From positions 96,001-160,000 of the forward strand of contig JAHPZE010000001.1 in NCBI GenBank assembly GCA_019058365.1: DNA of 64,000 bases. Direction: 5' to 3'. Made by a program: the position numbers and the translations under genes. Numbering within the stretch: the stretch's first letter is position 1; each line of letters starts with the position of its first letter. Of the stretch, positions 13,559 through 51,832 are shown piece after piece. The notes under the pieces were generated by a model. That model saw nothing but the letters and a program-made list of their open reading frames with translations, ran no database searches and was not told the DNA's origin. The DNA is from Promethearchaeota archaeon. Its GTDB lineage: Archaea > Asgardarchaeota > Lokiarchaeia > Sigyniarchaeales > SOKP01.

Positions 13559-15729
13559 TATGGTTTCACCTCCATATGAAATATCCTATGTTTATCGATT
13601 TTTACTTTAAAACCCGGAGGAATAACTAGAGTTGTAGCTGGTGCTTCAACAATAGAGGGACCTTGAATTATATTTCCGGATTTAATTAATGCCATTTCCC
13701 ATAAAGACGCTTCATACCATTTATTATCCCAATAAATATCTCTCGTTCCTTTAGAAGCATTGTCATTTGGTTTTTCTGTACTTATATCTTGTTCAGGTAA
13801 CTTAGGTTTAGGTACAGGGACTATTCCTGTGCCAATGCATTTAGTTATATGGTATCCTAACTCTGGACTCTTAGTTCCTCTTTTAAAAATTTGTTCAAAA
13901 AGATCATCATAACGACGAGTGATATCTTCCAGCTCAGGTGAATCGTATCTCTGCAACTCAGACGAATAATCAATAATTAATTCTTCTACTGGAGATTGTA
14001 CTTCTAGATCATCTAACATTCCGAAATATTGTAAACGTAGAGAAGGTTTAAAAATCATCTCACTAGGATCTCTCCCTTCAGCCTCAAATTCTTTTATAAT
14101 ACTGTTTTTTAATTCTTTCCAAGTTGAACTAAGTATAGAAGCTACAAATCCTATCATACTTCCATCTGGAGGAATAATTAAATCAACTGATTTTTCATGT
14201 CTATATGAATGGTCTGCACATGCACATCCAAAAGCTGAGAAAGCAGGTGCCCATTCTGGTATCAATATATCTTGAAAGTTTAAACCTCTTGAATAACCCG
14301 CTACATGTAAAGGACCTCCACCACCAAATGAGATTAATGTGTAATTTTCAGGTCTAAATCCTAATCCTTGGATCATTCCATTGAGATGGTTTTTCATATT
14401 AATTTCAATGAGATCTAAAGCACCTCGAGCTGTATCATAAGGATCTGCTTTAAAAGGGGCGGCTAATTGTTGTTCAATATATTTATATGCTCTATCTTTA
14501 TTCAATAAAACTTTACCACCAAGAAAATATTCTGGATTAAGATAACCTAATATTAAACTACAATCAGTCATTGTAACTGTCTCTACACCAGATTCTTCAT
14601 TACAAACGCCTATTTTATAACCAGCACTCTCAGGTCCAAACTCCAATCTACCTGAGACATCATTATATCTTACATACATGCCTGTACCTGCTCCTATTGA
14701 ATCTAAAGCGATCATAGGAATATTTAAAATAAATCTTCCAAGTGAACTTTCCCATTTGGTGGGAACATATCGCTCCATAACTAATCCAACGTCAAAACTA
14801 GTTCCTCCAACGTCGCTAGATACAAGATTTTTTATCCCATATTTTTCAGAAATGAACCTTGTACCAATCATACCTCCAATTGGACCTGAGACCATAGTTG
14901 GAATAAGTGTTTTATGATAGGGTGATATTGTTCCCCCATATGTAGTTAAGATTCTTAAAGGAGCAGGAACTCCTTTCTTATTCATTGTTTCAGCTATTTT
15001 TATTAATTGCTTTCTAGAAGGTTCTGCAGCATATTGTTCAATAATAAGAGCATTTAATCTTGGTGTTTCTCCTCTTACAGGGTTGTGTTCACATGATAAA
15101 ATAATAGGAATCTCTTTATTTTTTTCTTTCATTATCTTTTCAGCTATCGTTTTTACTTGTAATTCATGGCTAGAATTCATATACGAACAAAGTAAACATA
15201 TACAAATGCTATCAACATTCATATCAAGTAATTCTTCAACAGCTTTCTTAGCTTCCTCTTTATAGAGAGGAATCAATTCATCCCCCCAAAAATTAATTCT
15301 TCCACGGACACCTTTAATCTGTTTTCTTGGTATTAAAGGTTCTGGATGTTCATGTTCTCTAGCATGTAAGCGTCCTCCATAGTCTAAATAGATCCAGCAT
15401 TGTAAAGCTCGACCAAGTCTATGTAAATCTTCAAATCCAGCATTAACAATTACCCCTATGTTACTATTACCTTGTCGCTCTAAAAGTCTATTTACCATAG
15501 CTGTACCAGAATACACTAAAGCTTCAATCGAATGACCAGATACTCCTATAGAGGTATTCCATTGTTCTAATGCGTCTCCAATAGAATCTAAAATACCATC
15601 AGATTCGTTATCTGGTGTTGTTTGAGCTTTTCCAACCACAAATACGCCTTCTTCATCAATTATGAAAGTATCTGACATTGTACCTCCGGTATCAAAAGCC
15701 ATAGCCACTAATTTTTTTGATTTCGACAT
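13558..15729 (-). CDS. acxA: Acetone carboxylase beta subunit (hydantoinase A/oxoprolinase ATPase family)
   Basis: DTGGTMSDTF, GKAQTTP, SGPIGG, DVGGTSFD, SIGAGTG, FGGGGPLH; TAATG overlap with acxB. Confidence 0.88.
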   Translation of the reverse strand: MSKSKKLVAMAFDTGGTMSDTFIIDEEGVFVVGKAQTTPDNESDGILDSIGDALEQWNTSIGVSGHSIEALVYSGTAMVNRLLERQGNSNIGVIVNAGFEDLHRLGRALQCWIYLDYGGRLHAREHEHPEPLIPRKQIKGVRGRINFWGDELIPLYKEEAKKAVEELLDMNVDSICICLLCSYMNSSHELQVKTIAEKIMKEKNKEIPIILSCEHNPVRGETPRLNALIIEQYAAEPSRKQLIKIAETMNKKGVPAPLRILTTYGGTISPYHKTLIPTMVSGPIGGMIGTRFISEKYGIKNLVSSDVGGTSFDVGLVMERYVPTKWESSLGRFILNIPMIALDSIGAGTGMYVRYNDVSGRLEFGPESAGYKIGVCNEESGVETVTMTDCSLILGYLNPEYFLGGKVLLNKDRAYKYIEQQLAAPFKADPYDTARGALDLIEINMKNHLNGMIQGLGFRPENYTLISFGGGGPLHVAGYSRGLNFQDILIPEWAPAFSAFGCACADHSYRHEKSVDLIIPPDGSMIGFVASILSSTWKELKNSIIKEFEAEGRDPSEMIFKPSLRLQYFGMLDDLEVQSPVEELIIDYSSELQRYDSPELEDITRRYDDLFEQIFKRGTKSPELGYHITKCIGTGIVPVPKPKLPEQDISTEKPNDNASKGTRDIYWDNKWYEASLWEMALIKSGNIIQGPSIVEAPATTLVIPPGFKVKIDKHRIFHMEVKP
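13566..13573 (-). promoter_or_regulatory. Shine-Dalgarno GGAGGTGA for acxB, inside the acxA 3' end
   Basis: Minus strand reads atGGAGGTGAaaccataATG. Confidence 0.75.
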
Positions 15730-15840: not shown

Positions 15841-16950
15841 ATGATTAATACTTTTTATAGAAAATTAGCAAAACTAGCAATAAACTATGCGGTTAAAGTA
15901 AAGAAGGGAGAGAGAATCTTCATTACAGGCCCTGCTTTAGCACAAGAGCTTTTTCAAGCTATGTATATTGAAACTATCAAAGCTGGGGGTTATCCTCTTC
16001 TTAATGTTCAAATTGAAGGAATTCAGGAATTAAAATTGAAATACTCATCTGAAGAACAATTACTTTACGTAGATCCTATTCAAAAGTCGATTATGAAAGA
16101 ATTTGATTCATATATTGTAATATCTGGAGATTATAATACACGTAAAATGAGTTTAGTTGATCCAAAATTGATAACAAAGGTTCAAGGATCACCAGCTAAT
16201 AAAGAACTTTGGGACATCTTGATGGGAAGAATGGGTAAAAAAGAATTAAGATATCTTCTTATACCTTTCCCATGCAATTCATTTGCTCAAGAAGCTAATA
16301 TGGATTTATTCTCTTATTTTGAGTTTATGAAAAAAGCATTGTTCTTAGATAAAGAAGACCCCGTTAAAGAATGGTTACAGACTGAAAAAAAACAAGAAGT
16401 TATTTGTAACTATTTAAAAGGTACTGAACAAATCCATGTAAATGGTGAAGATACTAATTTGACAATGTCAGTTAAGGGGAGACTTTGGCTAAATGATTGT
16501 GGTCATATTAATTTACCCGCTGGTGAGATATATACTGCACCGATTGAAAATTCTGTAAACGGTCATATTCGATTTACATATCCCGGTATATTTCAAGGGA
16601 AAGAAATCCAGAATATATATTTGGAGTTCAAAGATGGAAAAGTAATAAAATCCTCAGCAGATAAGGGCGAAGACTTATTAAAAGAATTATTAAAGATTGA
16701 TAATGCTGATATATTAGGTGAATTTGCTATAGGGACTAATTATGGTATTACTAAATTTACAAAAAACATGCTTTTTGATGAAAAATTGGGAGGGACAATT
16801 CATTGCGCCCTTGGATCTGGAATTGAAGATGCGGGTTCAAAAAATAGGTGCGGGATACATTGGGATATTTTAAAAGACATGACACTCCCTGGTTCCAAAA
16901 TAATAGCTGATGATAAAGTTATTTATGAAGAAGGTAAGTGGAATCTCTAA
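15841..16950 (+). CDS. Aminopeptidase, M29 family (AmpS/AmpT)
   Basis: KLAKLAINYAV, NLPAGEIYTAP, LGEFAIGTN, LFDEKLGGTIHCALG, IHWD. Confidence 0.92.
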   Translation: MINTFYRKLAKLAINYAVKVKKGERIFITGPALAQELFQAMYIETIKAGGYPLLNVQIEGIQELKLKYSSEEQLLYVDPIQKSIMKEFDSYIVISGDYNTRKMSLVDPKLITKVQGSPANKELWDILMGRMGKKELRYLLIPFPCNSFAQEANMDLFSYFEFMKKALFLDKEDPVKEWLQTEKKQEVICNYLKGTEQIHVNGEDTNLTMSVKGRLWLNDCGHINLPAGEIYTAPIENSVNGHIRFTYPGIFQGKEIQNIYLEFKDGKVIKSSADKGEDLLKELLKIDNADILGEFAIGTNYGITKFTKNMLFDEKLGGTIHCALGSGIEDAGSKNRCGIHWDILKDMTLPGSKIIADDKVIYEEGKWNL

Positions 16951-17393: not shown

Positions 17394-17708
17394 ATGAAGA
17401 TCAACATTAATAGCGATGATTTGGAATTAGAGTGTTATTCGAAAATTATTGATTTTTTCCAAAAAGAGAAAATTAGCCAAGAGGAGACAGAGATTTGGAA
17501 AAATAAATCAATAATAGAGCTCATGAACTATCTTGAACGCACCCATAATCGAACTCTAGTAACAAATGCCCTCATTTTATTATTATCTCTATTTGAAGAT
17601 ATTCCTCCTGATACTTACAATAATCGTGGTGTCAATATAAACCATATGTCAGAAAAAGATAAAAGAACTATGATTGAAGATTTAAAAGAGGAATTCTTGC
17701 CTAATTAA
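17394..17708 (+). CDS. Hypothetical protein
   Basis: 104-aa helical-looking ORF; no motif recognised. Confidence 0.6.
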   Translation: MKININSDDLELECYSKIIDFFQKEKISQEETEIWKNKSIIELMNYLERTHNRTLVTNALILLLSLFEDIPPDTYNNRGVNINHMSEKDKRTMIEDLKEEFLPN

Positions 17709-17864: not shown

Positions 17865-20800
17865 TTGCATAGGAACTTTACAAAAAAGATTATAAAAAAC
17901 AAATATAGTAAGACTGGTTCTATAGCCTTTATTTTTTTTCTAATTCTTTTAACAAATACTAATATATTCCATAATTTTAATCAAAGTAATCTAAATTATG
18001 ACAAAACAGATGATTCTACCCGTTATGACAAAAAACTCAAAAGTGCTAATGGAGACGACATTTTATTTGAAGGATCAGAATTACCATTAGTAATTAACGA
18101 TACAGGAAATCTTTATGATTTCAATCAAGAAATTTTTGTATCAAATCAAGTAGAAACCAATATATCTTATTATTTGGATGATGTTCACGAATGGAAAGCA
18201 TCAAAAATTCAAACTAATATAAAAAACATTTATGATACAAGAGAATGGGTTCAAAATAATGATTTTTATGAATTAGATACTCCATTTAGAAATTATACAT
18301 CTTTTCAGAATAAAGACCCTTCTGGATTTCCTCCCCATAATTATAGTGATAATTTAGATAATGACCCCATTAACCCTTCAAATATTCATAGCACAATTAA
18401 TGAGAATGGTGCTAGTGCTATGAGATTACACTTTTTAAATATAGAAATTGAAACTGATTGGGATTTACTTTATATATATGATGCTAACAATATTTTGCAG
18501 TTTACGTTTACAGGGAAGGCAACTGATTTTTATAGTCCTTGGATTGCTTCTGATACTCTAAAGATTACAATTAACTCAGATGGTTCAATAGAATGGTATG
18601 GCTATAATATTGATTATTTTGAATTCTACAATACAAGCACAAATTATTTCGATTATAATAATTCTTGGGGATATAATAATAGAAGTTTGACGGGTAATTT
18701 CGGTCCTGGTGAAATTAATAACAATACAGCCATGTACGTGTCTTTAATAGGTGAACCTTTTAGAGATGGAAAAATGGGTGCAACCTATTATGAAAACGAG
18801 TTCGCTGAGATATATCAAAACCTAAATATACCAAGAGGATCTGTCATTAATGCTTATATTAAATTTGACTATTATGCAGAGTATGCAATGGATTCTAATG
18901 AGAATTTTATCTATTGTGAAATAAATAATAAAAAAATATTTTCAAAAGGATTAGGAGATATAGTTGACTCAGGAAAAAATATTTGGCATAGTTCAGGAAG
19001 TATAAACATAGATTTATGGTCTAATACATCAGTAATTTTTAATACCATTCAAGAAAATTATAACTTTAATATATCGGTGGGTATCATGAGTGGTGCTTCC
19101 GTTTCTTATTCAGGATTTGATGATAGATTCCAACAATTTTTCTGGTTTGATAACATTTCTTTAATACTAACTACAATTTGTAACTCTACTCAAAGTGATA
19201 TAAATATTACTATTAATGGGAAAAATCTTCTTGATAATAATTACTGGGGTAAATCTTATCGAAATTTTACTGGGATTTGGGATTCAAATCCTATAATTTT
19301 AACAGTGCAGACTTCATCTCCTTTTCTAAATTTTGAATTAGATACAACTATTTATGGTTATCATGAGACTACTTCAAGAGTAGGACAAACAACACAAGAA
19401 GGAGTACATTTTCAAATCTTAGAAAATGGTTCTGTATACTGGGAATTTACACACAATTTCTATATGCCTTCTCAATATTCTGATTTTGAATTTGAGATAA
19501 ACAAACCAGTTAATTGGAAATTTATTTCGGTTTTAGATCCAACACTTCAAGCAAGAACATTTGAGGGTGGAAATGAAGGGGATACTTTTTTGAAGATTAA
19601 TAAAACTGAAGCTAATTTTCCAGGTTGGTGGACTTTTAAAGCAATATCTCCCAATTATCTTAATATATCTAATACAAAAACATCTAAGAATGGACAATGG
19701 GGAATAAGAAATTTTTACACAGGAGATTCCATAAGAATCAAGTCTCAAATAAATTTTTCTGAAGAGATTCCTCCTAATATAGATTCAACTTTCGTAGATT
19801 TAAAGATTTATTATCCAAATGGAACATTATGGTATCAAGAATCAATTGCGCCCTATTCAAATGGAACCGTTATATTTTCAAACTTATCCTTTACTCAGCA
19901 AAATTTTATTGGAGGGCAGTATAATTATACACTTTTTTGGAGTAATGGAACAGCAATAGGAGGTTTAACATCATTTTTTACACTCATTCATAATAATACA
20001 ATGGTCCTAATAAAACCCGATGATGCTGTTTCAGATTTAACTACTGAAGCATTCATAGGTGATATTATTCCGTTAAGGATTCAATTGAAGGATATTGAAA
20101 ATAATAAGGTAATTACTGGCGCAATAATTACTTATAATTGGTCAACTGGTTTAAAAATCATCACAGAAGCTGCTTCTGGAATCTATGAGGCAATTTTAGA
20201 TACTTCAGAACTTGGTTCGAATGGATTTTATGAGATATTTATTAATTCATCAAAAATTGGATTTAAAAACTATAATATGACACTTAGAATCAATTTACTA
20301 GAAGAAACTAATCTATTACGTCTAGATTCAGAATATTATATCGAATTACATGATAATAGTACATTCAAATACAGTTATACCAATTCCATAGAAGAGGGAA
20401 TTGCAGGAGCGACAATAAATTTGAATATTGATCTTGAATATTATAATATTATCGATCATCTAGATGGAAATTATACAATAGAATTTGATTCTTCATATAT
20501 AAATGAATTAGGAATATATCAGATAAAATTAAATTTCTCAGCTCCAGCTTTTGAAATACAGCGCACAATATTTCAATTTGAAATAATTGAACAATCTGTT
20601 GATATTTCAGTTTATATAAAGAATCAAATAATACAAGAGAATTCTCTAATTGAAATAATGTTTAAAGAAAATATTGATATTTCTATAAGAATACTTGCTC
20701 AAATTGATAATGAATATCTTACTGGTGGAAATATTACATGGAATTCTAATAGTTTTTATAAGAAGATAGACGAAGAAGGAAATTTTTGGTTTAATGATTC

Positions 20801-22703
20801 AATTCCTATATCTTGTACTAATTTTTCTGCTGGATTAAATTTTGTTTATATCAGGTTTGAGCAAGTAAATTATCAAATTAAGAACTTTGGGTTTCAGTTA
20901 TTAATAAGCGAGCAAACAGTCAATATATCAACTTTCATTAATAATCAAGAAATCATTGAGAATTCTATTAAGGAATTAACTTTTAAAGAAAAAATAAATA
21001 TTTCAGCTAGAGTATTAGCTAATGGAGAGCAAATCTTTTTATCAGGAGCGAATATTACATTTATTAGCGATAATTATAATAAAGATTTAAATGAAACAAT
21101 TTTTCCATGGTATAATACTTCAATTGAAATTTCTGGTTCATATTTTAATCCGGGCATTAATTATGTTTATTTAAAATTTGAATTAGAAAATTATACTACT
21201 GATATATTTTCATTTCAATTCTTAATTAGAGCCCAAAAAATAAATTTAACTGTGCTAATAAATTCAGAGAAGATAACTGAAAATTATCTATTAGAATTCA
21301 GCTTTAATGATGATTTTTCAATTTCAGCCCAAAGTTATGCAACTTCGGAAAAATTTTATTTAGCAGATGGTCTAATGACTTTTGTTACCGGTGATTACGA
21401 AAAAAACTGTACGAATTATGAAGGTTATTGGTATAACACTTCAATTTCATGTTCATATAATATTTTTTCATTAGGGGTTAATTATGTTTATTTGAGGTTT
21501 CAAAAAGAGAATTACTCAACAACAATATTTTCCTTTCAAATTTTAATTAATCAAGTTGAAATTCAGGTAAAATATATTGGTTTTGAGGATTCTATTGAAG
21601 CAGAAATCGGAGAAACTATAAATATTACAATACAATTATTAGACCCAAAAACAAATATTTCTGTTGACCATGCTTATGTAAGATATTCATGGGAATATGG
21701 AATAGGTACATTAAATGAAACACGACCAGGAATATATCAAGTTATTATTGAGTTACCTGAAAATTTACAAGGTAATTTCAAATTTAATCTTATAATAACT
21801 CCTGAAAATATAATATATAAAACAACAATAAATTCTTTTATAGTTGTCATTAGAGTGCCTATAGTTGATGGATCAGAATTCCCTAATTATTTATTATGGA
21901 TTATCATAGGCGTATTATTAATTGTTGCTAGTGCTCTTGGCGCTTTAAGTTTAAGGTCCTATGTATTCTTGCCACGAAAACGTAAAAAAGAAGCTGAATT
22001 ACTCTCTAAAACTCAAAAATTTAAAGATCTCAAAAATATTCAAGCTATTGTAGTAGTTCATAATTTAAGTGGAATTCCAATTTACTCGAAAAGTTATTCC
22101 ATTCTTGAAAAACATAAAAAAGAACTTTTTTCAGGATTTATTCAGGCAATTACAACAATTGGGGAAGAATTTATTGATAAAGAAATTAATGAACTAGAAT
22201 CTACTGAACTTGAGAAAGGGTATGGTATAGAAAAAATGATTGAATTAGATTTTAAACAATTCTATTGTTTAATTGCTGATATAGAAGATATTCGAATTGT
22301 TTTTATTTTGAAAGAACGTTCCTCTGAAAGATTGAAAAGTCAAATTTCTCATCTCATTTTAGCATTAAATCTAAAACTTTCTAATAAATTAGAAGATTGG
22401 GATGGATCCTTAGATGACTTTCAAATATTAGTTCCAGAAATATTGAATGAATATTTTGAGCTATATTATAAGGATTCATTTATCTTGTCGGATGATATCA
22501 ATCTCATTACTATGAAAAAAGAAAGAAAGTTAACTAAGATGGAAATGCGAGTAATAAATGTTGTTCAATCAATGTCGGTAGATAATAGAATTGCTGATCT
22601 TAATAATATAGTCGAGTTAGTTAGCGAAGAAAATAAGGATTTAATCATCGAAGCAATCGAATCACTACTCAGACAAAAATTAATTATACCACTAAGTAAT
22701 TAA
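17865..22703 (+). CDS. Large single-pass surface protein: signal/anchor, CUB-like domain, Ig-like repeats, TM helix, cytoplasmic longin-like plus winged-helix tail
   Basis: N-terminal hydrophobic segment; CUB-like MRLHF..IEIETDWD.LYIYD...SDGS..YGY; many N-x-S/T sequons; TM YLLWIIIGVLLIVASALGALSL followed by RKRKK; tail IQAIVVVHNLSGIPIYS...LFSGFIQAI. Confidence 0.8.
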   Translation: MHRNFTKKIIKNKYSKTGSIAFIFFLILLTNTNIFHNFNQSNLNYDKTDDSTRYDKKLKSANGDDILFEGSELPLVINDTGNLYDFNQEIFVSNQVETNISYYLDDVHEWKASKIQTNIKNIYDTREWVQNNDFYELDTPFRNYTSFQNKDPSGFPPHNYSDNLDNDPINPSNIHSTINENGASAMRLHFLNIEIETDWDLLYIYDANNILQFTFTGKATDFYSPWIASDTLKITINSDGSIEWYGYNIDYFEFYNTSTNYFDYNNSWGYNNRSLTGNFGPGEINNNTAMYVSLIGEPFRDGKMGATYYENEFAEIYQNLNIPRGSVINAYIKFDYYAEYAMDSNENFIYCEINNKKIFSKGLGDIVDSGKNIWHSSGSINIDLWSNTSVIFNTIQENYNFNISVGIMSGASVSYSGFDDRFQQFFWFDNISLILTTICNSTQSDINITINGKNLLDNNYWGKSYRNFTGIWDSNPIILTVQTSSPFLNFELDTTIYGYHETTSRVGQTTQEGVHFQILENGSVYWEFTHNFYMPSQYSDFEFEINKPVNWKFISVLDPTLQARTFEGGNEGDTFLKINKTEANFPGWWTFKAISPNYLNISNTKTSKNGQWGIRNFYTGDSIRIKSQINFSEEIPPNIDSTFVDLKIYYPNGTLWYQESIAPYSNGTVIFSNLSFTQQNFIGGQYNYTLFWSNGTAIGGLTSFFTLIHNNTMVLIKPDDAVSDLTTEAFIGDIIPLRIQLKDIENNKVITGAIITYNWSTGLKIITEAASGIYEAILDTSELGSNGFYEIFINSSKIGFKNYNMTLRINLLEETNLLRLDSEYYIELHDNSTFKYSYTNSIEEGIAGATINLNIDLEYYNIIDHLDGNYTIEFDSSYINELGIYQIKLNFSAPAFEIQRTIFQFEIIEQSVDISVYIKNQIIQENSLIEIMFKENIDISIRILAQIDNEYLTGGNITWNSNSFYKKIDEEGNFWFNDSIPISCTNFSAGLNFVYIRFEQVNYQIKNFGFQLLISEQTVNISTFINNQEIIENSIKELTFKEKINISARVLANGEQIFLSGANITFISDNYNKDLNETIFPWYNTSIEISGSYFNPGINYVYLKFELENYTTDIFSFQFLIRAQKINLTVLINSEKITENYLLEFSFNDDFSISAQSYATSEKFYLADGLMTFVTGDYEKNCTNYEGYWYNTSISCSYNIFSLGVNYVYLRFQKENYSTTIFSFQILINQVEIQVKYIGFEDSIEAEIGETINITIQLLDPKTNISVDHAYVRYSWEYGIGTLNETRPGIYQVIIELPENLQGNFKFNLIITPENIIYKTTINSFIVVIRVPIVDGSEFPNYLLWIIIGVLLIVASALGALSLRSYVFLPRKRKKEAELLSKTQKFKDLKNIQAIVVVHNLSGIPIYSKSYSILEKHKKELFSGFIQAITTIGEEFIDKEINELESTELEKGYGIEKMIELDFKQFYCLIADIEDIRIVFILKERSSERLKSQISHLILALNLKLSNKLEDWDGSLDDFQILVPEILNEYFELYYKDSFILSDDINLITMKKERKLTKMEMRVINVVQSMSVDNRIADLNNIVELVSEENKDLIIEAIESLLRQKLIIPLSN
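20592..21554 (+). repeat. Three tandem 107-aa (321-nt) Ig-like repeats within the large surface protein
   Basis: Units start at 20592 (QSVDIS), 20913 (QTVNIS) and 21234 (QKINLT), each with W[FY]N.SI...G[LIV]N[FY]VY[IL].F...NY....F.FQ.LI. Confidence 0.85.
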
Positions 22704-22747: not shown

Positions 22748-23368
22748 ATGATTAATATGAAAAAATTAAGATTCACTTGCTCCAGGTGTGGGAACTGCTG
22801 TACTGATAAAAATACTTTAGTGAATTTAACATATTTAGATATTTTAAGAATTAAGAAAGGTTTGGATTTAGAAATTGATGAAGTACTTGATATAATAGGA
22901 TTTTTTGTTTTTGACAAAACATTGACTAATGAAGATAAAAAGAGAATGATTGTTACCCCTATAGAAACAGAAAGAGGGTTAGCTTTTATTGGTCTCCTCA
23001 AAAACAGTTTTGGGAATTGTTATTTTTATAGTCCAGAAAAGAAGAAATGTTTAATTTATAACTTGAGACCGATGTTTTGTCGAACGTTTCCATTTTCATT
23101 TGAGGTTTTAGATGAAAAGAAAGGCGAAACTGATAGTTTAATAAATATAGTTTACACTGAAAAAGGAAAACAATATTGTCCCGGAATTAATGATGAAGCG
23201 CCTCTAATTGATACAGAATATTGGATTCAGTTAGGTAAAAGAACCTTGAATGATCTGAAAAACAATCATAACGTAATAAAAAAATGGAATGAATCGGTTA
23301 AACAAGGGAAGGTGGTTCCCACAGTGAAAAAGTTTCTTCTCAAGATTTTGGAATTTAATGATAATTAA
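22748..23368 (+). CDS. YkgJ/UPF0153 family cysteine-cluster protein
   Basis: FTCSRCGNCC, C.FY, CLIYNLRPMFCRTFPF, CPG. Confidence 0.9.
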   Translation: MINMKKLRFTCSRCGNCCTDKNTLVNLTYLDILRIKKGLDLEIDEVLDIIGFFVFDKTLTNEDKKRMIVTPIETERGLAFIGLLKNSFGNCYFYSPEKKKCLIYNLRPMFCRTFPFSFEVLDEKKGETDSLINIVYTEKGKQYCPGINDEAPLIDTEYWIQLGKRTLNDLKNNHNVIKKWNESVKQGKVVPTVKKFLLKILEFNDN

Positions 23369-23453: not shown

Positions 23454-25139
23454 TTATACAAACGCATATTGTGAGCTAGCTAACAATGCCCAATATAATA
23501 TCTCTAACTCAATTTTAAAACCAATTTTATCTGTTTGCCAATTAAAAACTCTATCAAAATTTTCTTTATTGAAGAATTTTGTTATATTTAATATATAATT
23601 TAATAGATTATTACATAATTCTTGTTCATGATCTTTTAGATCCAGTAGTTTAAAGATAAGTAATGCTAGTGCTGAATCGGTTATTAAATTCCTTATAGAG
23701 CCATTTGCTTCTATTAACTTTTTAATTTCATTAATATAATTAATCTTAAATTGATTTAGATTTATTTCTTTATCCAATAACTTTAATGATGCTAAATAAT
23801 GGTATATATCTAAAGGTGTCTTAAAGTCTTCCAGATTTGATAGATTTATATTTTGAATAAGATTTCCAATTAAAGTTTTATTAAATAAAATTATTCGTTT
23901 TTTAGCAATCAATTTTAAGCAAAATAGAGAATATAAATTTAACTCTAATTTTTCGGGAATGAACATTTCTAACTCTGATTTGATAAAGCTTTCAATTTCA
24001 AGTAAATCAATTATATCTGTTTTATCTAAAAAATTCATTTCTGACAAAATTGCGAGACCATAAAAGATGTTCTTCGAGTCTGGTATATTATCTTTTGAGG
24101 AACTAAATACTCTATCATTTATGAATTGCTTTATTATTTCTAAAGTTTCAAGGTTAGTAAAAGGAGATTCTAGATTCAACATTTTGATGATTGATAAATA
24201 ATAAAACAAATTCTCTAAGTCAAAAAAGTTTTGATTTACCATTTTTAAATTTATCAAATTCATTTTATCAATCTTGATTTCGTTAACTATTTTGTTATTT
24301 ATTAGCAATGAATGGCCAATATTATCAAGAAAAGTGTTACTGTCCATTAAAGTACCTAAATCTTTATTTATTTTTGGGAGAGTTCTTGATTGATGATTTA
24401 ATGGTACAATTGGAACATTTTGTGTAATTAATTTATTTGTGGGGATTAAAACTTCTCGAATCGGTTTTTTTTTTAGACTTTCTGTTGAAGATCTTAGTAG
24501 TTCTTTCTTAGGAGTTTTCAAGGTTTCAATGATGTCTTGTTTTGCTTCTCTTAATTGGGTTAAAATATCTGGTTCTGTCATTTGTTTAGATTCAATAAAA
24601 GTTAAATCTGTAAAATTAATAAATCTTTTATAATCATATTGTTGAAATTCTTTTTTAGTATCCGCAGAATTAATATATGCATTTTTAAATTCATTTAGTT
24701 TTGTAATGAAATTATCGGGTAATAAATCAAATAAATTTACATTCGCAAGTTTTTTAACATCAATATCAAAAAGATACTCAAGTAAGATTTCGAACAATAC
24801 TTCATGTACGTATTTCTCCATATAAAGCTCAAAATATGAATTATAATCTGGTACTAGAGCTCCTTTAGTTTTCAGAGTTTCCAAAAAATGATTTTGGTTT
24901 TCGTTTAACTTATCCATTGAAACACCGAGTGTATTTAAACCGGTTTTGATTGCTTTTAAAATCTTTCCAAGAGAAATTTTTATTTGTTTTTCACTTTCGG
25001 TTTCAGTTTTTTTTTTCAAATCAATTTTTTTATAAGCAATTAGGTCTTTTAGATAAGAATAACTTTTTTGGTAGTATTCGAAAATCTCATTTTTCATTAT
25101 AGAAAAAAAATCAGTTAAAATATCAGTAATCTCTTTCAT
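23454..25139 (-). CDS. Hypothetical all-helical protein (C-terminal half possibly a degenerate prenyltransferase-like alpha/alpha toroid)
   Basis: 561-aa ORF with recurring helical units (NLFYYLSIIKML, NIFYGLAILSEM, DIYHYLASLKLL, DSALALLIFKLL). The fold is a guess. Confidence 0.6.
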   Translation of the reverse strand: MKEITDILTDFFSIMKNEIFEYYQKSYSYLKDLIAYKKIDLKKKTETESEKQIKISLGKILKAIKTGLNTLGVSMDKLNENQNHFLETLKTKGALVPDYNSYFELYMEKYVHEVLFEILLEYLFDIDVKKLANVNLFDLLPDNFITKLNEFKNAYINSADTKKEFQQYDYKRFINFTDLTFIESKQMTEPDILTQLREAKQDIIETLKTPKKELLRSSTESLKKKPIREVLIPTNKLITQNVPIVPLNHQSRTLPKINKDLGTLMDSNTFLDNIGHSLLINNKIVNEIKIDKMNLINLKMVNQNFFDLENLFYYLSIIKMLNLESPFTNLETLEIIKQFINDRVFSSSKDNIPDSKNIFYGLAILSEMNFLDKTDIIDLLEIESFIKSELEMFIPEKLELNLYSLFCLKLIAKKRIILFNKTLIGNLIQNINLSNLEDFKTPLDIYHYLASLKLLDKEINLNQFKINYINEIKKLIEANGSIRNLITDSALALLIFKLLDLKDHEQELCNNLLNYILNITKFFNKENFDRVFNWQTDKIGFKIELEILYWALLASSQYAFV

Positions 25140-25268
25140 GTTTCAAAAATCTTGTTCTTTTCAGTGATATATAATGAAAATTGTTTATCAAATTTATTAT
25201 GTTTTTGTATATTTATTTTTTTCCGTGTGAGTAATCTTTATTATCTGAATGGTATTAATTTCATTAAT

Positions 25269-26543
25269 ATGTCTCAAGAAAAAACTAGATTAGTAATTAA
25301 ATCAGGAAATATTTTTGATTCCGTTAATGGAATATTGAAAGAGAATCAAACAATCATAATTCAAGGAAAGAGAATTCTTTGGTGCGATGAGGATGACGCT
25401 TTCGAGAAAGACTTGAATGATAAAATTATTGATGTAAATGGAAAAACAATTATACCGGGTATGATTGATTGTCATGTCCATCTTGAAAACACAGCGGAAC
25501 CAGATTATGAGAGAAAATATCTAAGGACAACAAAAACTATGTGGCATTATTATGCTTTACAAAATGCGCAAAAACATTTGATTAATGGTTATACATGCAT
25601 ACGAGATTGTGGAAGTCTTCCCGAATGGGGCCCATCCTTAAGGAGAATATTCGATATTGGCGCTCTTGCAGGGCCTCGAATACTTATAGCAAATTTACCT
25701 ATCACTCAATGGGGTAATCAAGAAGAAATCGGACCAGTTGAGGTAATTGAGTATTATGGGAAATTATCTGAAGTTAAAGCTGGTATCGATGGGATAAGGC
25801 ATGCAGTTAGGGACAGAAAGCGTTCTGGATCAGATTTTATTAAGACAGTTACTACAGGGGGGGTATTACATGGAATTACTTCTAAAGTTGACACTAGTCT
25901 TTTTCTAAACGAAGAATTATTAGCAATGACAGAGGAAGCCCATAGACTAGAGATGCATGTAGCAAGTCATGCTCATGGACGGGAAGGGATCTATAAAGCT
26001 GTACAAGCAAATGTGGATACAATAGAACACGGAACTCTTATTGATGAAGAAATCATTGATTTAATGATAAAAAAACAAACCTTTTTAATTCCTACTCAAG
26101 CAGCTTGTTTTGGAATAAGCAAACCTGATATTTTAAAACAATTACCTCCTGAAGTAGCAACCAAAATAAAACAAATTCAAGAACAAATGATTAGTAATCA
26201 CAAAATAGCATTTGAAAAAGGTGTGCTTTTCGCAATTGGAACTGATGCTGGTACTCCTGGTAACCCTCATGGTACAACAACTAATGAAATTATTAATATG
26301 ATAGAAAACGTAGGTATGACCACTTCTCAAGCGCTCCAAGCAGCAACGATTCAGGGTGCGAAAGCCATTAAAATGGAAGAGCAAATTGGTTCTATAGAAA
26401 AAGATAAATTAGCAGATTTGGTAGTTTGTAATGGAAATCCAATAGAAGAAATATCAATTTTAAAGGATCCCAAAAATCTGCTTTACGTGATTAAAGATGG
26501 TAAAATTATGGCTAAAAAAGGAAAAATTACATATTTCAATTAA
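25269..26543 (+). CDS. Metal-dependent amidohydrolase (Xaa-Pro dipeptidase/prolidase-like subgroup)
   Basis: PGMIDCHVH, G.T.IRDCG, D.IK...TGGV, HAHG, IEHG, GTDAG, ADLVV..GNP. Start moved to ATG 25269 (MSQEK); the upstream TTG extension looks non-coding. Confidence 0.9.
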   Translation: MSQEKTRLVIKSGNIFDSVNGILKENQTIIIQGKRILWCDEDDAFEKDLNDKIIDVNGKTIIPGMIDCHVHLENTAEPDYERKYLRTTKTMWHYYALQNAQKHLINGYTCIRDCGSLPEWGPSLRRIFDIGALAGPRILIANLPITQWGNQEEIGPVEVIEYYGKLSEVKAGIDGIRHAVRDRKRSGSDFIKTVTTGGVLHGITSKVDTSLFLNEELLAMTEEAHRLEMHVASHAHGREGIYKAVQANVDTIEHGTLIDEEIIDLMIKKQTFLIPTQAACFGISKPDILKQLPPEVATKIKQIQEQMISNHKIAFEKGVLFAIGTDAGTPGNPHGTTTNEIINMIENVGMTTSQALQAATIQGAKAIKMEEQIGSIEKDKLADLVVCNGNPIEEISILKDPKNLLYVIKDGKIMAKKGKITYFN

Positions 26544-26556
26544 AATTTGATTACTT

Positions 26557-27303
26557 ATGGAGAATTCTTGTTTTAACCATTTTTCAGAAGATTATCATTT
26601 GAAACGGAAGAAACCTTGGCGTCCACTAGAATTTTTTCTTAATCATTTAAAAAATAAAAAATATACTTTTGATGGTATAATTTTAGATTTAGGTTGTGGA
26701 AATGGCAGAAATTTTAAAATAATGGGTATACCTCCTAAAAAATTGATTGGATTAGACTTATCTCTCGAATTAATTAAAATAGCTCAAGCGCAACTTAAAA
26801 AAATTGATCAATATTCGCAAAATGAATCACATTTTATTCAGCTTCTGCTAGCAGATATTTCTAAACTTCCTTTTCGTAAAAAAACAGTAAATGCCATTTT
26901 CTCAATAGCCGCAATTCATCATATAAGGAAAAAATCTGAAAGAAAGAATACAATTATTCAAATATATGATATATTGAAAAAAAATGGAAATTTAATTCTA
27001 ACTGTATGGCGCAAATGGCAAAAGCAGTTTAGATATTATTTTCTTTCTGAATGGTATAAAAGAAGATTTATAATTAATTATAAAAAGCAACAAGAGCTAA
27101 TTGGTTTAAAAGAATTTGGAGATAAATTTATCCCTTGGACTCTTTCCAATGAACAAAAAACTTATAATCGATTCTATCACTTTTTCTCTAAAAGAGAACT
27201 CAAGAAATTATTAAAGGATTTTATAATCAAAGAATTTAAAATTACGGGGGGTCCTTCAGATCGAGATAATTTTTTTATTTTTGCACGAAAACCGATGAAT
27301 TAA
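26557..27303 (+). CDS. Class I SAM methyltransferase, Trm9/ALKBH8-like (putative tRNA wobble cm5U methyltransferase)
   Basis: R.KPW, LDLGCGNGRN, SIAAIHHI, LTVW, D.FIPW and RFYHFFS..EL follow the Trm9 motif order. Confidence 0.8.
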   Translation: MENSCFNHFSEDYHLKRKKPWRPLEFFLNHLKNKKYTFDGIILDLGCGNGRNFKIMGIPPKKLIGLDLSLELIKIAQAQLKKIDQYSQNESHFIQLLLADISKLPFRKKTVNAIFSIAAIHHIRKKSERKNTIIQIYDILKKNGNLILTVWRKWQKQFRYYFLSEWYKRRFIINYKKQQELIGLKEFGDKFIPWTLSNEQKTYNRFYHFFSKRELKKLLKDFIIKEFKITGGPSDRDNFFIFARKPMN

Positions 27304-28710: not shown

Positions 28711-29346
28711 TCAAAATTTAATAATATCTAAATCTTCTAACTTTTTTAGTATTTCATTTATTTCTGTCCTTTTTTTATTTAAATTTCTTGAAATTTTCAA
28801 GGGAGAATCTTTTCCAGTGCATTGTAATGCAACTTGAAAGTCAAAATCAGCAATCATTCCCATGGATAGAACTTTTTCTAATACACTTTTAGCAACTATT
28901 AAATTTGGAAAAACTTCAGCTATCTTTCCGCCAATTGTAAGATTTTCTATATCCGCAATTAATGTTTGAAATCTACTTTTATCTGTTGTTGCCCTAAAAT
29001 TTTTAAGATCAGATTGGTGCTTTTTCCAAAAACGATTGGCTATTTTATGGATAATTTCCTCAATTTTGTCAGTATTATCATCAGCATCTGAAATTGAGCA
29101 AAATAAAATCCTTGATAATGGGTGATAGTAAATGAAAATGGTTGAATCTTCTGATTGTAATATTCTATCCATTTCATTTACTCTTCTCCCTTTTACCATA
29201 GCTTTTTGAATTATATCAATGGTTATATTAATTGCTTTAAAAAAACCAGTTATTATATCATCTTGAATTTTCTTTAATTCTTTAAATGTTGATTCTAAAA
29301 GGGATATCCCATTATCCCCATCAATTAGATAAATCTTATAAATCAA
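28711..29346 (-). CDS. Longin-like domain plus C-terminal winged-helix protein
   Basis: IYLIDGDNGISLLE...IITGFFKAI longin-like start; C-terminal SPLKISRNL..KRTEINEILKKLEDLDII is wHTH-like. Start is a non-ATG codon (TTG). Confidence 0.65.
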   Translation of the reverse strand: MIYKIYLIDGDNGISLLESTFKELKKIQDDIITGFFKAINITIDIIQKAMVKGRRVNEMDRILQSEDSTIFIYYHPLSRILFCSISDADDNTDKIEEIIHKIANRFWKKHQSDLKNFRATTDKSRFQTLIADIENLTIGGKIAEVFPNLIVAKSVLEKVLSMGMIADFDFQVALQCTGKDSPLKISRNLNKKRTEINEILKKLEDLDIIKF

Positions 29347-51486: not shown

Positions 51487-51649
51487 TGGTATTCAATGAA
51501 ATAAATCGTTCATAGCTTTTTCTACAATTGCTATATTATTGTATAAATTGTGTTTATAATTATCTATAGGTATCTTCGTGAAAGAGGTGTTTCACGAACT
51601 TCGATACATTAAACTGTAAACCATTCAAATTCACAAATTTTTATAAAAT

Positions 51650-51832
51650 CCTATTTTTATTTTAGGAAATAAGGAAGATTTAATTTCTGAAAGATATCTA
51701 GTATCTGAAGAAGCATTAAAAATTGTAAATGAACTTACCTTAGAGTATATCGAGACTTCTGCGTTAATTGAAAAAAACATAGAAGAAAGCTTTTGCAAAA
51801 TGGCGGAAAGTTTAATTAAATCCCATCAATAA
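51650..51832 (+). pseudogene. Relic 3' fragment of a Rab-like GTPase
   Basis: Not in the ORF track. Translates as PIFILGNKEDL...YIETSALIEKNIEESFCKMAESLIKSHQ* (G4 plus G5). In-frame TAA at 51644; no start codon, G1 or G3. Confidence 0.8.

What the first reader, a model, noticed from the sequence alone, without database searches (positions are those of the whole stretch)
17865..22703. Receptor-like 1612-aa protein linking an extracellular CUB/Ig stalk to a cytoplasmic longin-wHTH domain
Seen: about 1340 aa of sequon-rich ectodomain with a CUB-like domain (~aa 165-255) and three exact-period 107-aa repeats, one TM at ~aa 1342-1363, a basic stop-transfer, and an approx. 250-aa tail. The tail start (IVVVHNLSGIPIYS...ELFSGFIQAI) resembles the soluble protein at 28711 (IYLIDGDNGISLLE...DIITGFFKAI), and both end in a wHTH-like segment. 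Inference: a type I receptor architecture that could relay surface or cell-contact signals to small GTPases via longin dimerisation.
Basis: partly seen in the sequence, partly recalled or inferred. Interest (0 to 1): 0.72.

Follow-up and report, generated by a model that had tools for sequence, protein, structure and literature searches.

The report
Asgard surface receptor with longin tail
This gene from an Asgard archaeon encodes a large, probably sugar-coated, cell-surface protein whose short cytoplasmic tail has a longin fold (which eukaryotes use as a docking platform for small GTPases), an arrangement common in Asgard genomes that I could not find described.

Summary
The ORF at 17865-22703 (+) encodes a 1612-aa single-pass membrane protein.

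- **Topology:** it has an N-terminal signal or anchor, one TM helix (aa ~1342-1363) and a basic stop-transfer. There are 48 N-x-S/T sequons before the TM (23 expected) and 1 after it.
- **Ectodomain:** predicted structures show a CUB fold at aa 141-257 (Z 11.5 to PCPE-1). A CBM/MAM-like jelly roll follows at aa 260-437. Three exact 107-aa repeats span aa 896-1216.
- **Tail:** aa 1390-1536 form a longin fold (Z 11.7 to Sec22b, 126 of 128 residues). A winged-helix-like end follows.
- **Distribution:** the tail family is found in 119 of 151 sampled genomes of the phylum, in several copies per genome. It always sits C-terminal to a TM and a variable ectodomain.
- **Soluble protein at 28711:** it is a distant two-domain homologue of the tail (hhalign 83%, E 8e-6).
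- **New here:** a CxxCxxCC protein gene follows the receptor at 17-62 bp in 68 of 80 species. Repeat number varies from 0 to 6 between orthologues.

The architecture is shown. Coupling to GTPases is inferred. A homodimer prediction gave no verdict. The scan noted this same stretch once before, in an overlapping window, not on other DNA.

The parts
17865..22703 (+). Whole gene: 1612-aa single-pass (type I) membrane protein, P0001
   Evidence: Open frame. An identical 1612-aa database gene call exists (P0273). 76 homologues of 888-1923 aa matched the head region, 67 of them aligning in all five regions compared, and none has a functional name (sources give 'hypothetical protein' or nothing).
17913..17969 (+). 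N-terminal hydrophobic segment (aa ~17-35) after a basic n-region: signal peptide or signal anchor
   Evidence: KD window 1.69 at aa 17. Homologues begin the same way, with a basic stretch then a hydrophobic stretch.
18285..18635 (+). CUB-fold domain, aa 141-257
   Evidence: AF2 model of aa 140-520 has pLDDT 88.7 and pTM 0.83. VIA-align gives PCPE-1 CUB Z 11.5, rmsd 2.4, 102 aa; C1r CUB2 Z 10.8, 101 of 117; neuropilin a2 21-22% identity. The module is missing from some paralogues, so it is a discrete unit.
18642..19175 (+). Second beta jelly roll, aa 260-437, of CBM / MAM / reelin-subrepeat type
   Evidence: VIA-align: a chain of promeprin beta (4gwm, residues 268-426) Z 10.7, 133 aa; reelin Z 10.3; CBM36 and CBM15 Z 10.0.
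19176..20549 (+). Beta-rich, sequon-rich middle of the ectodomain (aa 438-895); fold not assigned
   Evidence: No Pfam match passes threshold. The region is conserved in orthologues, with mean identity 56% for aa 521-880. aa 726-801 resemble aa 1243-1319.
20550..21512 (+). Three tandem 107-aa repeats (aa 896-1002, 1003-1109, 1110-1216): variable-length stalk
   Evidence: Self-comparison gives offsets of 107 and 214 aa, identity 31-47%, E down to 1e-28. Orthologues carry 0, 1, 3, 4, 5 or 6 copies, which explains their lengths of 1187-1923 aa.
21591..21821 (+). Membrane-proximal domain aa 1243-1319, related to aa 726-801
   Evidence: BLASTP 36% identity over 55 aa, E 8e-9.
21888..21953 (+). Transmembrane helix, aa ~1342-1363
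   Evidence: The hydropathy peak is 2.74 for the window at aa 1343-1361. A TM lies ~30 aa before the tail in nearly all family members long enough to show it.
21954..22031 (+). Basic stop-transfer and conserved juxtamembrane helix (aa 1364-1389; T-Q-x-F-K-D-x-x-N motif)
   Evidence: Net charge +7 over aa 1364-1390. T9, Q10, K13, D14 and N17 are invariant in 16 close homologues, and D14 and N17 are kept in at least 90% of 69 sequences. Modelled as a helix. This stretch and the longin domain are the best-conserved parts, at 65% and 64% mean identity.
22032..22472 (+). Cytoplasmic longin domain, aa 1390-1536 (strand-strand-helix-strand-strand-strand-helix-helix)
   Evidence: AF2 model of the tail has pLDDT 79 and pTM 0.71. 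VIA-align: Sec22b longin Z 11.7, rmsd 3.1, 126 of 128 aa; sigma-adaptins, Fuzzy and TRAPP subunits Z 10-11; a Lokiarchaeota longin (8yqg) Z 10.9. Foldseek probability is 1.00.
22473..22700 (+). C-terminal linker helices and winged-helix-like module, aa 1537-1612
   Evidence: The modelled order is helix, short strand, helix, helix, strand. Family members repeatedly hit winged-helix Pfam families below threshold: DnaD_N 11 of 66, DsrD 6, Rio2_N 3, RPA_C 3, RuvB_C 2. DsvD (1ucr) scores E 0.032. No dedicated fold search was run.
22748..23368 (+). Conserved downstream partner gene: 206-aa CxxCxxCC (PF03692) protein, P0344
   Evidence: Pfam E 2.8e-12. The gene sits on the same strand, 17-62 bp after the receptor's stop, in 68 of 80 species loci whose tail identity runs from 98% down to 48%.
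28711..29346 (-). Soluble 211-aa distant homologue of the tail (longin plus wHTH), P0002
   Evidence: hmmsearch E 2e-4. hhalign 83%, E 8.4e-6, 199 columns across both domains. TrmB-type wHTH hint E 0.018. The listed homologues are 74-100% identical.

Best explanation
**Shown.** The gene encodes a type I membrane protein of an Asgard (Loki-type) archaeon.
- About 1300 aa lie outside the cell.
- The distal head is a CUB-fold domain followed by a CBM/MAM-like jelly roll.
- A beta-rich middle follows, then a stalk of three 107-aa repeats whose number differs between species.
- One TM helix follows.
- The 249-aa cytoplasmic tail consists of a conserved juxtamembrane helix, a longin domain and a winged-helix-like end.
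- This tail defines a multi-copy family found across much of the phylum. It always sits behind a TM and a variable ectodomain.

**Inferred.**
- The 2-fold sequon excess suggests the ectodomain is N-glycosylated.
- The protein is one of the 'complex surface proteins' of S-layer-less Lokiarchaeia, and it acts as a receptor or adhesin.
- The head binds an external ligand, probably a glycan or a protein on a partner cell or substrate, possibly with Ca2+ at the CUB site.
- The tail places a longin platform at the inner face of the membrane.
- As in eukaryotic longin and roadblock proteins, that platform docks a cytosolic partner. The partner is most likely one of the many Arf-, Rag- or Rab-like GTPases, or another longin or roadblock protein.
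- The acidic-to-neutral winged helix serves as a second protein-binding surface, as in NPRL2/NPRL3.
- The co-transcribed CxxCxxCC protein is a candidate cytoplasmic partner.
For: **Topology.** There is one strong TM, a +7 stop-transfer, and 48 sequons outside against 1 inside (23 and 1.4 expected). Three large paralogues show the same asymmetry.

**Folds.** CUB Z 11.5 and jelly roll Z 10.7 come from a model with pLDDT 88.7. Longin Z 11.7 covers 126 of 128 residues of Sec22b, and a solved Lokiarchaeota longin scores Z 10.9. ESM Atlas models of family members reproduce the whole tail at TM 0.77 over 213-231 residues.

**Family.**
- 256 clusters at 50% identity match the tail. In full-length hits it lies at or near the C-terminus of proteins of 230-2275 aa.
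- A TM lies ~30 aa upstream of it.
- 119 of 151 sampled genomes of the phylum have it, as do 68 of 72 high-quality ones, with 3-13 matches per genome in the window's own family.
- Named loci are labelled Promethearchaeota/Promethearchaeia, Hermod-, Hod-, Thor- or Odinarchaeota, and the rest 'uncultured archaeon'.

**Selection.** The juxtamembrane stretch (65%) and the longin domain (64%) are the best-conserved parts among 67 orthologues. The head is at 56%.

**Link of this longin type to GTPases and signalling.** In the same genome the profile also hits:
- a longin-Roc/Arf GTPase fusion;
- a multi-TM longin-HisKA-HATPase kinase;
- two 12-TM proteins with C-terminal longin domains, one passing the Pfam MFS_1 cutoff.

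**Literature.**
- Longin and roadblock dimers are GTPase platforms (PMC3747258, PMC10933270).
- NPRL2-like longins are expanded and fused to signalling domains in Asgard (10.1101/2020.10.19.343400).
- Lokiarchaeum ossiferum lacks an ordered S-layer and shows complex surface proteins (PMC9834061).

**Stalk.** Repeat number varies from 0 to 6 between orthologues. From general knowledge, this is typical of surface adhesins and receptors.
Against: No partner has been identified.
- No GTPase gene is adjacent to the receptor, either here or in the two neighbourhoods inspected.
- No GTPase was found within 3 kb downstream in 80 species loci.
- Asgard GTPases are generally not in operons with their regulators (PMC10933270), so context cannot decide the question.

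No Pfam longin or CUB model reaches its threshold on this protein, so homology to the eukaryotic families rests on fold.

The CUB domain lacks the canonical cysteines.

Glycosylation, surface location and expression are all unverified.

Longins of this type also sit where PAS or GAF sensors sit in a histidine kinase, so a role unrelated to GTPases is possible.
Confidence: 0.5

Rival explanations
1. It is a structural envelope protein or adhesin only. The ectodomain builds the cell coat or mediates cell-cell or substrate adhesion. The longin-wH tail serves for sorting, clustering or anchoring to the cytoskeleton or membrane-shaping machinery, and no signal is relayed.
For: The ectodomain is very large, sequon-rich and repeat-bearing, and stalk length varies between species. 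There are several matches per genome. Lokiarchaeia lack an S-layer and carry many surface proteins (PMC9834061). No signalling enzyme domain is present in the protein.
Against: The tail's longin domain and juxtamembrane helix are the most conserved parts, and the same tail is kept behind unrelated ectodomains. That pattern points to a specific cytoplasmic interaction. It does not by itself separate anchoring from signalling.
Confidence: 0.25
2. The tail pairs specifically with the soluble longin-wHTH protein at 28711, by forming a longin heterodimer. That pair is the functional unit that talks to the neighbouring longin-GTPase-roadblock protein.
For: The two are distant homologues over both domains. 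The genes lie 6 kb apart here and in two other genomes. The 28711 protein lies next to a 487-490-aa Arf/Gtr1_RagA-type GTPase gene and is very conserved, its listed homologues being 74-100% identical.
Against: The genes are on opposite strands with five genes between them. The shared spacing was seen only in genomes carrying close homologues, so it may be inherited gene order. Genomes carry many receptor paralogues and many other longins, so a one-to-one pairing is not indicated. The pairing itself was not tested.
Confidence: 0.1
3. It is a membrane-tethered transcription regulator. The C-terminal winged helix binds DNA, either at the membrane (ToxR/CadC-like logic) or after proteolytic release of the tail (Notch-like logic).
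For: The C-terminus has winged-helix topology and makes sub-threshold matches to DNA-binding wH families such as DnaD_N, HTH_36, HTH_27 and Trans_reg_C. The soluble relative gives a weak TrmB hit.
Against: The wH region is not basic. Its median net charge is -1 (range -8 to +4), and the third helix has a median of 0 across 66 members. In P0001 that helix carries D, E, E and E. The wing is reduced to one short strand at the very C-terminus. In the closest eukaryotic layout, NPRL2/3, wH repeats follow a longin domain within a GTPase-regulating complex; PMC3747258 leaves their ligand (DNA, RNA or protein) open.
Confidence: 0.07
4. The longin domain acts as a PAS/GAF-like sensor of a cytoplasmic small molecule or of membrane state. 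It modulates the ectodomain or the oligomeric state rather than docking a GTPase.
For: In the same genome this longin type sits between a multi-TM region and HisKA-HATPase, which is the position of PAS, GAF or HAMP domains. It also sits at the C-terminus of two 12-TM proteins, one passing the MFS_1 cutoff. Longins are grouped with the PAS/GAF superfamily in the literature (PMC4917890, citing De Franceschi 2014).
Against: No ligand pocket or cofactor motif was identified. The structural neighbours are all trafficking or GTPase-platform longins and roadblocks, not PAS or GAF sensors.
Confidence: 0.08

Closest known systems
Asgard 'NPRL2-like' longin-domain signature proteins (Liu et al., bioRxiv 10.1101/2020.10.19.343400)
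   Same: The taxon is the same, and the longin fold is expanded in both. This type also occurs fused to two-component and GTPase domains, as the paper describes and as I see in this genome.
   Different: The paper text I could read does not describe a single-pass receptor form with a large extracellular domain. Here the longin is the cytoplasmic tail of a type I membrane protein and is followed by a winged helix.
Eukaryotic NPRL2/NPRL3 (GATOR1; yeast Npr2/Npr3)
   Same: The domain order is a longin followed by winged-helix module(s) (PMC3747258). Foldseek aligns the whole tail to Npr2/Npr3 and NPRL2/3 chains over 255-311 columns at E 2e-4 to 2.5e-3.
   Different: Those proteins are soluble and much longer, with several wH repeats and extra inserts. 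The whole-chain superposition is poor (rmsd 13-14 A, TM 0.23-0.31). No Pfam NPR2 or NPR3 match appeared among the families listed. An arginine finger could not be assigned.
Longin SNAREs (Sec22b, VAMP7, Ykt6)
   Same: Sec22b is the best structural match for the longin domain (Z 11.7, 126 of 128 aa). Both hold a cytoplasmic longin at a membrane through a TM helix. The first hairpin has a G-x-P turn (G29 is invariant) that resembles, from memory, the D-G-L-P turn of Sec22b.
   Different: The order is opposite. SNAREs run longin, SNARE motif, C-terminal TM, with almost nothing outside the membrane. Here a 1300-aa ectodomain and the TM come before the longin, and there is no SNARE coiled coil.
Metazoan CUB-containing surface receptors (neuropilin, Kremen, cubilin, PCPE-1, enteropeptidase)
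   Same: A CUB-fold domain lies at the distal end of a single-pass membrane protein and is followed by another jelly roll. The 50 entries VIA-align shows are mostly CUB domains over aa 141-257 (Z 9.7-11.5, 13-22% identity) and jelly rolls over aa 260-437. By my reading, the acidic residues E196, D200 and D239 fall where CUBs bind Ca2+, and they are kept in at least 90% of 79 homologues.
   Different: No Pfam CUB hit appears even at E 10. There are no cysteines in the domain, whereas CUBs normally have two disulfides. The loop between the first two acidic residues is about 4 residues shorter. Convergence on a common jelly roll cannot be excluded.
Solved Lokiarchaeota Roadblock-Longin protein (PDB 8yqg) and Asgard roadblock dimers (9jue, 9jq8)
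   Same: The phylum and the fold are the same (Z 10.9 and 10.0). Those proteins crystallise as dimers, according to the entry titles.
   Different: By their entry titles and chain lengths (112-157 aa) those are small proteins or domains without an ectodomain. Whether this tail dimerises is unknown.

Membership tests
Longin domain (fold superfamily) | Secondary-structure order: strand, strand, helix, strand, strand, strand, helix, helix | tested here: met
   The AF2 model gives E18-25, E31-36, H45-66, E83-88, E93-99, E102-108, H114-136, H143-157.
Longin domain (fold superfamily) | Structural superposition on solved longin domains that covers the whole domain | tested here: met
   Sec22b Z 11.7, rmsd 3.1, 126 of 128 aa. 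VAMP7, Ykt6, sigma-adaptins, zeta-COP, TRAPPC subunits, Fuzzy and Mon1-Ccz1 score Z 9.5-11.3.
Longin domain (Pfam sequence families: Longin, Sybindin, Clat_adaptor_s, Fuz/Intu_longin_1) | A profile match above the curated cutoff | tested here: not met
   P0001 and its tail have no hit. Only 2 of 69 family members give Intu_longin_1 at E 0.019, below threshold. Distant paralogues give sub-threshold Sybindin, Fuz_longin_1, Longin and Clat_adaptor_s hits.
NPRL2/NPRL3-type longin proteins | A longin domain followed by winged-helix module(s) | tested here: inconclusive
   The order of longin then wH-like module is present. There is only one reduced wH, and the whole-chain structural match is poor (TM 0.23-0.31).
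NPRL2/NPRL3-type longin proteins | A catalytic arginine finger and a GP motif in the first hairpin (PMC12290439) | tested here: inconclusive
   G29 is invariant in 69 sequences, and the hairpin reads G-I-P rather than G-P. R103 is kept in at least 90% of sequences but is modelled inside a strand. No residue-level superposition was available.
Longin SNAREs | A longin domain, then a SNARE heptad motif, then a C-terminal TM anchor | tested here: not met
   The TM (aa 1342-1363) precedes the longin (aa 1390-1536), and a winged-helix-like module follows it in place of a SNARE motif.
CUB domain | A CUB-type beta sandwich | tested here: met
   aa 141-257: PCPE-1 Z 11.5, rmsd 2.4, 102 aa; C1r CUB2 Z 10.8, 101 of 117 aa. 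CUB domains make up most of the matches shown for this range.
CUB domain | A Pfam PF00431 profile match | tested here: not met
   No CUB hit for aa 40-300 at E up to 10.
CUB domain | Two conserved disulfide bonds (four cysteines) | tested here: not met
   The cysteines of P0001 are at aa 351, 439, 984, 1182, 1196 and 1468. None falls in aa 141-257.
CUB domain | The Glu-Asp-Asp Ca2+-binding triad of ligand-binding CUBs | tested here: inconclusive
   E196 and D239 are kept in at least 90% of 79 homologues, and D200 is invariant. Their equivalence to the triad rests on my alignment to a consensus recalled from memory, not on a residue-level superposition.
Winged helix (wHTH) | Helix, strand, helix, helix, strand(s) topology and similarity to known wH domains | tested here: inconclusive
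   The topology fits. There are recurrent sub-threshold hits to DnaD_N (11 of 66, best 2.3e-5), DsrD, Rio2_N, RPA_C and RuvB_C, and to DsvD at E 0.032. No separate fold search of this part was run.
Type I (single-pass, N-out / C-in) membrane glycoprotein | An N-terminal signal, one TM, positive charge on the cytoplasmic side, and sequons confined to the N-terminal side | tested here: met
   No dedicated topology predictor was available, and glycosylation itself cannot be tested here.

The most novel reading that the evidence does not exclude
Asgard archaea possess a large, phylum-wide class of single-pass surface receptors whose cytoplasmic longin-winged-helix tails recruit or regulate Arf-, Rag- or Rab-like GTPases at the plasma membrane. 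This would be a prokaryotic forerunner of receptor-to-small-GTPase signalling and of membrane-anchored longin platforms such as Ragulator, GATOR and longin SNAREs. The extracellular CUB/lectin-like heads would sense partner cells or substrates.
Probability: 0.25. Interest if true: 0.85.

Novelty: new variant of a known kind. Interest (0 to 1): 0.66.

Why it matters
Asgard genomes are full of small GTPases and of longin and roadblock proteins. Where these act in the cell, and what switches them, is an open question.

A conserved, multi-copy family that fixes a longin platform to the inner face of the cell membrane, behind a large variable ectodomain, offers a concrete and testable entry point. 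The tails can be used as baits to find which GTPases or adaptors they bind.

If they do bind GTPases, outside-in coupling of cell contact to GTPase switches would predate eukaryotes. That bears on models in which eukaryogenesis began with surface-mediated syntrophic contacts.

The family also supplies named candidates for the unidentified 'complex surface proteins' seen by cryo-tomography on Lokiarchaeum. It adds a CUB-fold domain, a fold I know mainly from animal extracellular proteins, to the Asgard repertoire. I found no paper that contains both 'Asgard' and 'CUB domain'.

Tried and rejected
**Complex prediction.** I ran a prediction of two copies of the tail. The score was 0.02 against a mark of 0.42, so the verdict is 'no answer'. 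It counts neither for nor against dimerisation.

**Sequence-family searches.**
- Pfam on the whole protein, the tail and eight ectodomain segments found nothing above threshold.
- NCBIfam found nothing for the tail, for 28711, for the CxxCxxCC protein or for the 561-aa neighbour.
- A profile search of solved structures with the tail gave only noise plus a weak DsvD hit.

**Other searches.**
- DNA-level tandem-repeat search missed the 107-aa repeats because the copies are only 31-47% identical at protein level.
- A BLASTP self-comparison of the whole protein printed only the identity hit, so I used windowed queries.
- The ESM Atlas feature search on aa 60-720 and on an orthologue returned only the protein's own cluster.
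- The first try of the search for related loci with the 69-sequence alignment failed because no stretch was conserved enough. A 16-sequence alignment worked.

**Context.**
- GTPase linkage by context is rejected as evidence. The genome has 93 Ras-superfamily matches, and none was found within 3 kb downstream of the receptor in 80 loci.
- Paralogous receptors in this genome do not share the neighbours of this copy.

**Literature.** Searches for a transmembrane or ectodomain-bearing longin protein, or for a CUB domain, in Asgard archaea found nothing relevant. The supplements of Liu et al. were not available. Absence from this library is not proof that the family is undescribed.
Full report
**1. 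The gene and its product**

The window has about 28% G+C. It lies on a 473,737-bp contig of a 4.74-Mb, 54-contig genome. ORF 17865-22703 (+) is open for 1612 codons from a TTG start. The protein database holds the identical 1612-aa gene call (P0273). All named relatives come from Asgard metagenome-assembled genomes labelled Promethearchaeota or Lokiarchaeota, with some labelled Hermod-, Hod-, Thor- or Odinarchaeota.

**2. Topology**

Hydropathy shows a weak N-terminal hydrophobic stretch at aa ~17-35, after a basic n-region. It also shows one strong segment peaking at aa 1343-1361. The segment is followed by RSYVFLPRKRKKE, and aa 1364-1390 carry a net charge of +7.

The N-terminal 1340 residues hold 48 N-x-S/T sequons against 23 expected from composition. 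The 249-aa tail holds 1 against 1.4 expected. Three other large paralogues in the genome show 40-91 sequons before their TM and 2 after it.

The positive-inside rule and the sequon asymmetry both place the large part outside and the tail in the cytoplasm. If the N-terminal segment is an uncleaved anchor rather than a signal peptide, the tail is still cytoplasmic.

**3. The ectodomain**

No Pfam model matches any of it. A 79-sequence alignment of aa 140-520 (A4) gave a confident AlphaFold2 model with pLDDT 88.7 and pTM 0.83.

- **aa 141-257:** these residues superpose on CUB domains.
  - PCPE-1 gives Z 11.5, rmsd 2.4 A over 102 residues.
  - Kremen gives Z 11.2.
  - C1r CUB2 gives Z 10.8 over 101 of 117 residues.
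  - Neuropilin a2 gives Z 10.7 at 21-22% identity.
- **aa 260-437:** these residues superpose on CBM-, MAM- and reelin-type jelly rolls. A promeprin beta chain (residues 268-426) gives Z 10.7, and CBM36 and CBM15 give Z 10.0.

Sequence-level membership fails, because there is no Pfam CUB hit and the domain has no cysteines.

Three acidic residues (E196, D200, D239) are invariant or nearly so in 79 homologues. By my reading of the CUB consensus they sit where ligand-binding CUBs hold Ca2+. That reading relies on memory and is a lead, not a test.

The CUB module is absent from several paralogues that otherwise align along the ectodomain, so it behaves as a discrete unit.

**4. The stalk**

Windowed self-comparison finds three tandem copies at exact offsets of 107 and 214 residues, with 31-47% identity and E down to 1e-28. 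An HMM of the copies places them at aa 896-1002, 1003-1109 and 1110-1216.

Orthologues carry 0, 1, 3, 4, 5 or 6 copies. This accounts for their length classes of about 1187, 1390, 1612, 1715, 1820 and 1915 aa.

A further pair, aa 726-801 and aa 1243-1319, flanks the array. I could not test the Ig-like fold of these modules. Larger family members do give Big_1, Big_3_5 and MG4 hits.

**5. The tail**

A search of 1.84 billion representative proteins with aa 1375-1612 found 256 clusters, 66 of them below E 1e-30. In full-length hits the match lies at or near the C-terminus of proteins of 230-2275 aa. Nearly all members long enough to show it have a hydrophobic segment about 30 residues upstream of the match.

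A 69-sequence alignment (A1) gave a model with pLDDT 79 and pTM 0.71. It shows a juxtamembrane helix, then two strands, a helix, three strands and two helices, then further helices and a short strand.

Model residues 16-162 (aa 1390-1536) superpose on longin domains:

| Match | Z | Coverage |
|---|---|---|
| Sec22b | 11.7 | rmsd 3.1 A, 126 of 128 residues |
| AP sigma subunits, VAMP7, Fuzzy, TRAPP subunits | 10-11.3 | - |
| Solved Lokiarchaeota longin (8yqg) | 10.9 | - |
| Roadblock proteins (shorter range) | ~10 | - |

Foldseek also aligns the whole tail to NPRL2/NPRL3 and Npr2/Npr3, but with poor global superposition. ESM Atlas models of about 730-aa family members reproduce the whole tail at TM 0.77.

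The last ~75 residues have winged-helix topology. Family members repeatedly touch winged-helix Pfam families below threshold: DnaD_N in 11 of 66, then DsrD, Rio2_N, RPA_C and RuvB_C. The profile also touches DsvD at E 0.032. This part is not basic, with a median net charge of -1. That speaks against DNA binding without excluding it.

Among 67 orthologues, mean identity to this protein is:

| Region | Mean identity |
|---|---|
| TM and juxtamembrane stretch | 65% |
| Longin domain | 64% |
| Head (aa 140-520) | 56% |
| Middle (aa 521-880) | 56% |
| Winged helix | 49% |

**6. Distribution**

The tail profile matches 119 of 151 sampled genomes of the phylum at E below 1e-10, and 68 of 72 high-quality ones. 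There are 3-13 matches per genome in the window's own family. Some families have no match, for example 0 of 4, 0 of 5 and 0 of 5 genomes.

This genome has four large receptors. They are this one, a 1346-aa paralogue just past the window's end, and proteins of 1337 and 2265 aa. It also has two 457-aa forms without a clear TM. Ectodomains of other members are unrelated to this one and mostly lack Pfam domains.

**7. The wider longin family in this genome**

The tail profile also finds, at lower scores:

- stand-alone longins;
- a longin-Roc/Arf GTPase fusion;
- a multi-TM longin-HisKA-HATPase kinase;
- two 12-TM proteins with C-terminal longin domains, one passing the Pfam MFS_1 cutoff.

Several of these touch the Sybindin, Fuz_longin_1, Longin or Clat_adaptor_s models below threshold. 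This fits the published description of NPRL2-like longins in Asgard archaea that are fused to two-component domains (10.1101/2020.10.19.343400). It also shows that tethering this longin type to membrane proteins is a recurring theme in this genome.

**8. The 28711 protein**

BLASTP similarity to the tail is marginal. The tail profile finds it at E 2e-4 in this genome. Profile-profile comparison gives 83% probability, E 8.4e-6, over 199 columns that span both the longin and the winged-helix parts. It is therefore a distant soluble relative with the same layout.

It is strikingly conserved. The listed homologues are 74-100% identical and nearly all about 211 aa long. In two other genomes it lies beside a 487-488-aa Arf/Gtr1_RagA-type GTPase. 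The counterpart here is ORF 30801-32273. Its most natural partner is that GTPase, not the receptor.

**9. Conserved neighbours of the receptor**

In 68 of 80 species loci, with tail identity running from 98% down to 48%, a roughly 200-aa CxxCxxCC protein gene (PF03692) follows the receptor on the same strand. The gap is only 17-62 bp, with a median of 42.

A convergent gene for an unannotated protein of about 560 aa follows in 66 of 80 loci. Several of the 12 loci without the CxxCxxCC gene are second copies in a genome.

An upstream 104-aa ORF is kept in the two neighbourhoods that reach that far.

**10. Mechanism**

The architecture is shown. That the tail acts as a docking platform is inferred, for three reasons. 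Longin and roadblock domains play this role generally (PMC3747258, PMC10933270). This longin type is fused to GTPases and signalling domains in the same genome. The juxtamembrane helix and the longin domain are the best-conserved parts.

A homodimer prediction gave no verdict. Rivals are listed in the rival-explanations section.

**11. Novelty**

Longin domains in Asgard archaea are well known. I found no paper in the searchable library that describes a receptor-like, ectodomain-bearing longin protein, or a CUB-fold domain, in Asgard archaea. That library is incomplete, and the family may sit unnamed in published orthologue tables. I therefore rate this a new variant of a known kind.

Noticed in passing
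window 22748-23368 (+), and loci L025-L099: A CxxCxxCC (PF03692, YkgJ-like) protein gene follows the receptor gene on the same strand at 17-62 bp in 68 of 80 species loci. This is probably an operon. The function of the pair is unknown.
   Followed up: partly
window 23454-25139 (-): A 561-aa protein with no Pfam or NCBIfam match lies convergent to the receptor-CxxCxxCC pair. It is kept in 66 of 80 loci.
   Followed up: partly
window 17394-17708 (+): A small acidic 104-aa ORF lies 156 bp upstream of the receptor. A 104-aa gene is called in the same position in L105 and L106. Its only hit is a weak HTH_22 match (E 0.02).
   Followed up: partly
window 20550-21512, and orthologues P0274-P0342: The 107-aa stalk repeat is present in 0, 1, 3, 4, 5 or 6 copies in orthologues from different species, giving discrete protein length classes from about 1187 to 1923 aa.
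   Followed up: yes
window 28711-29346 (-) and 30801-32273 (-): The soluble longin-wHTH protein is very conserved, its listed homologues being 74-100% identical and nearly all about 211 aa. In other genomes it lies directly beside a ~490-aa Arf/Gtr1_RagA-type multidomain GTPase. Here a transglutaminase-like gene (29492-30784) lies between them.
   Followed up: partly
G000:C16:161268-165308 (-), about 1.3 kb past the window's end (L022): A 1346-aa paralogous receptor has the same layout and a tail 40% identical to this one.
   Followed up: partly
G000:C21:56711-58366 and 58566-60209 (L015, L014); C36:83773-85656 (L017); C21:41709-42578 (L019): The same longin type is fused to the C-terminus of two adjacent 12-TM proteins (one passes the Pfam MFS_1 cutoff). 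It also sits between a multi-TM region and HisKA-HATPase in a histidine kinase, and at the N-terminus of a Roc/Arf-like GTPase.
   Followed up: partly
whole genome G000: There are 93 matches to the Ras family profile in 4.74 Mb. Five fall within the window: 30801-32273, 40197-41699, 50443-51486, 51620-51814 and 52496-53041.
   Followed up: no
ESM Atlas clusters (rows 4 and 8): Thermoplasmatota DUF11/CARDB surface proteins and bacterial OmpA-domain proteins have regions that align to the tail model at TM about 0.5. This is a lead that surface proteins with longin- or roadblock-like cytoplasmic parts may exist outside Asgard archaea.
   Followed up: no
window 13558-15729 (-), 15841-16950 (+), 25152-26543 (+), 26557-27303 (+): The neighbouring genes look like ordinary metabolism genes: hydantoinase/oxoprolinase, M29 aminopeptidase, amidohydrolase and a SAM methyltransferase. 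The methyltransferase is kept in the two compared neighbourhoods and the M29 peptidase in one; the other two were not seen there. No link to the receptor is evident.
   Followed up: no
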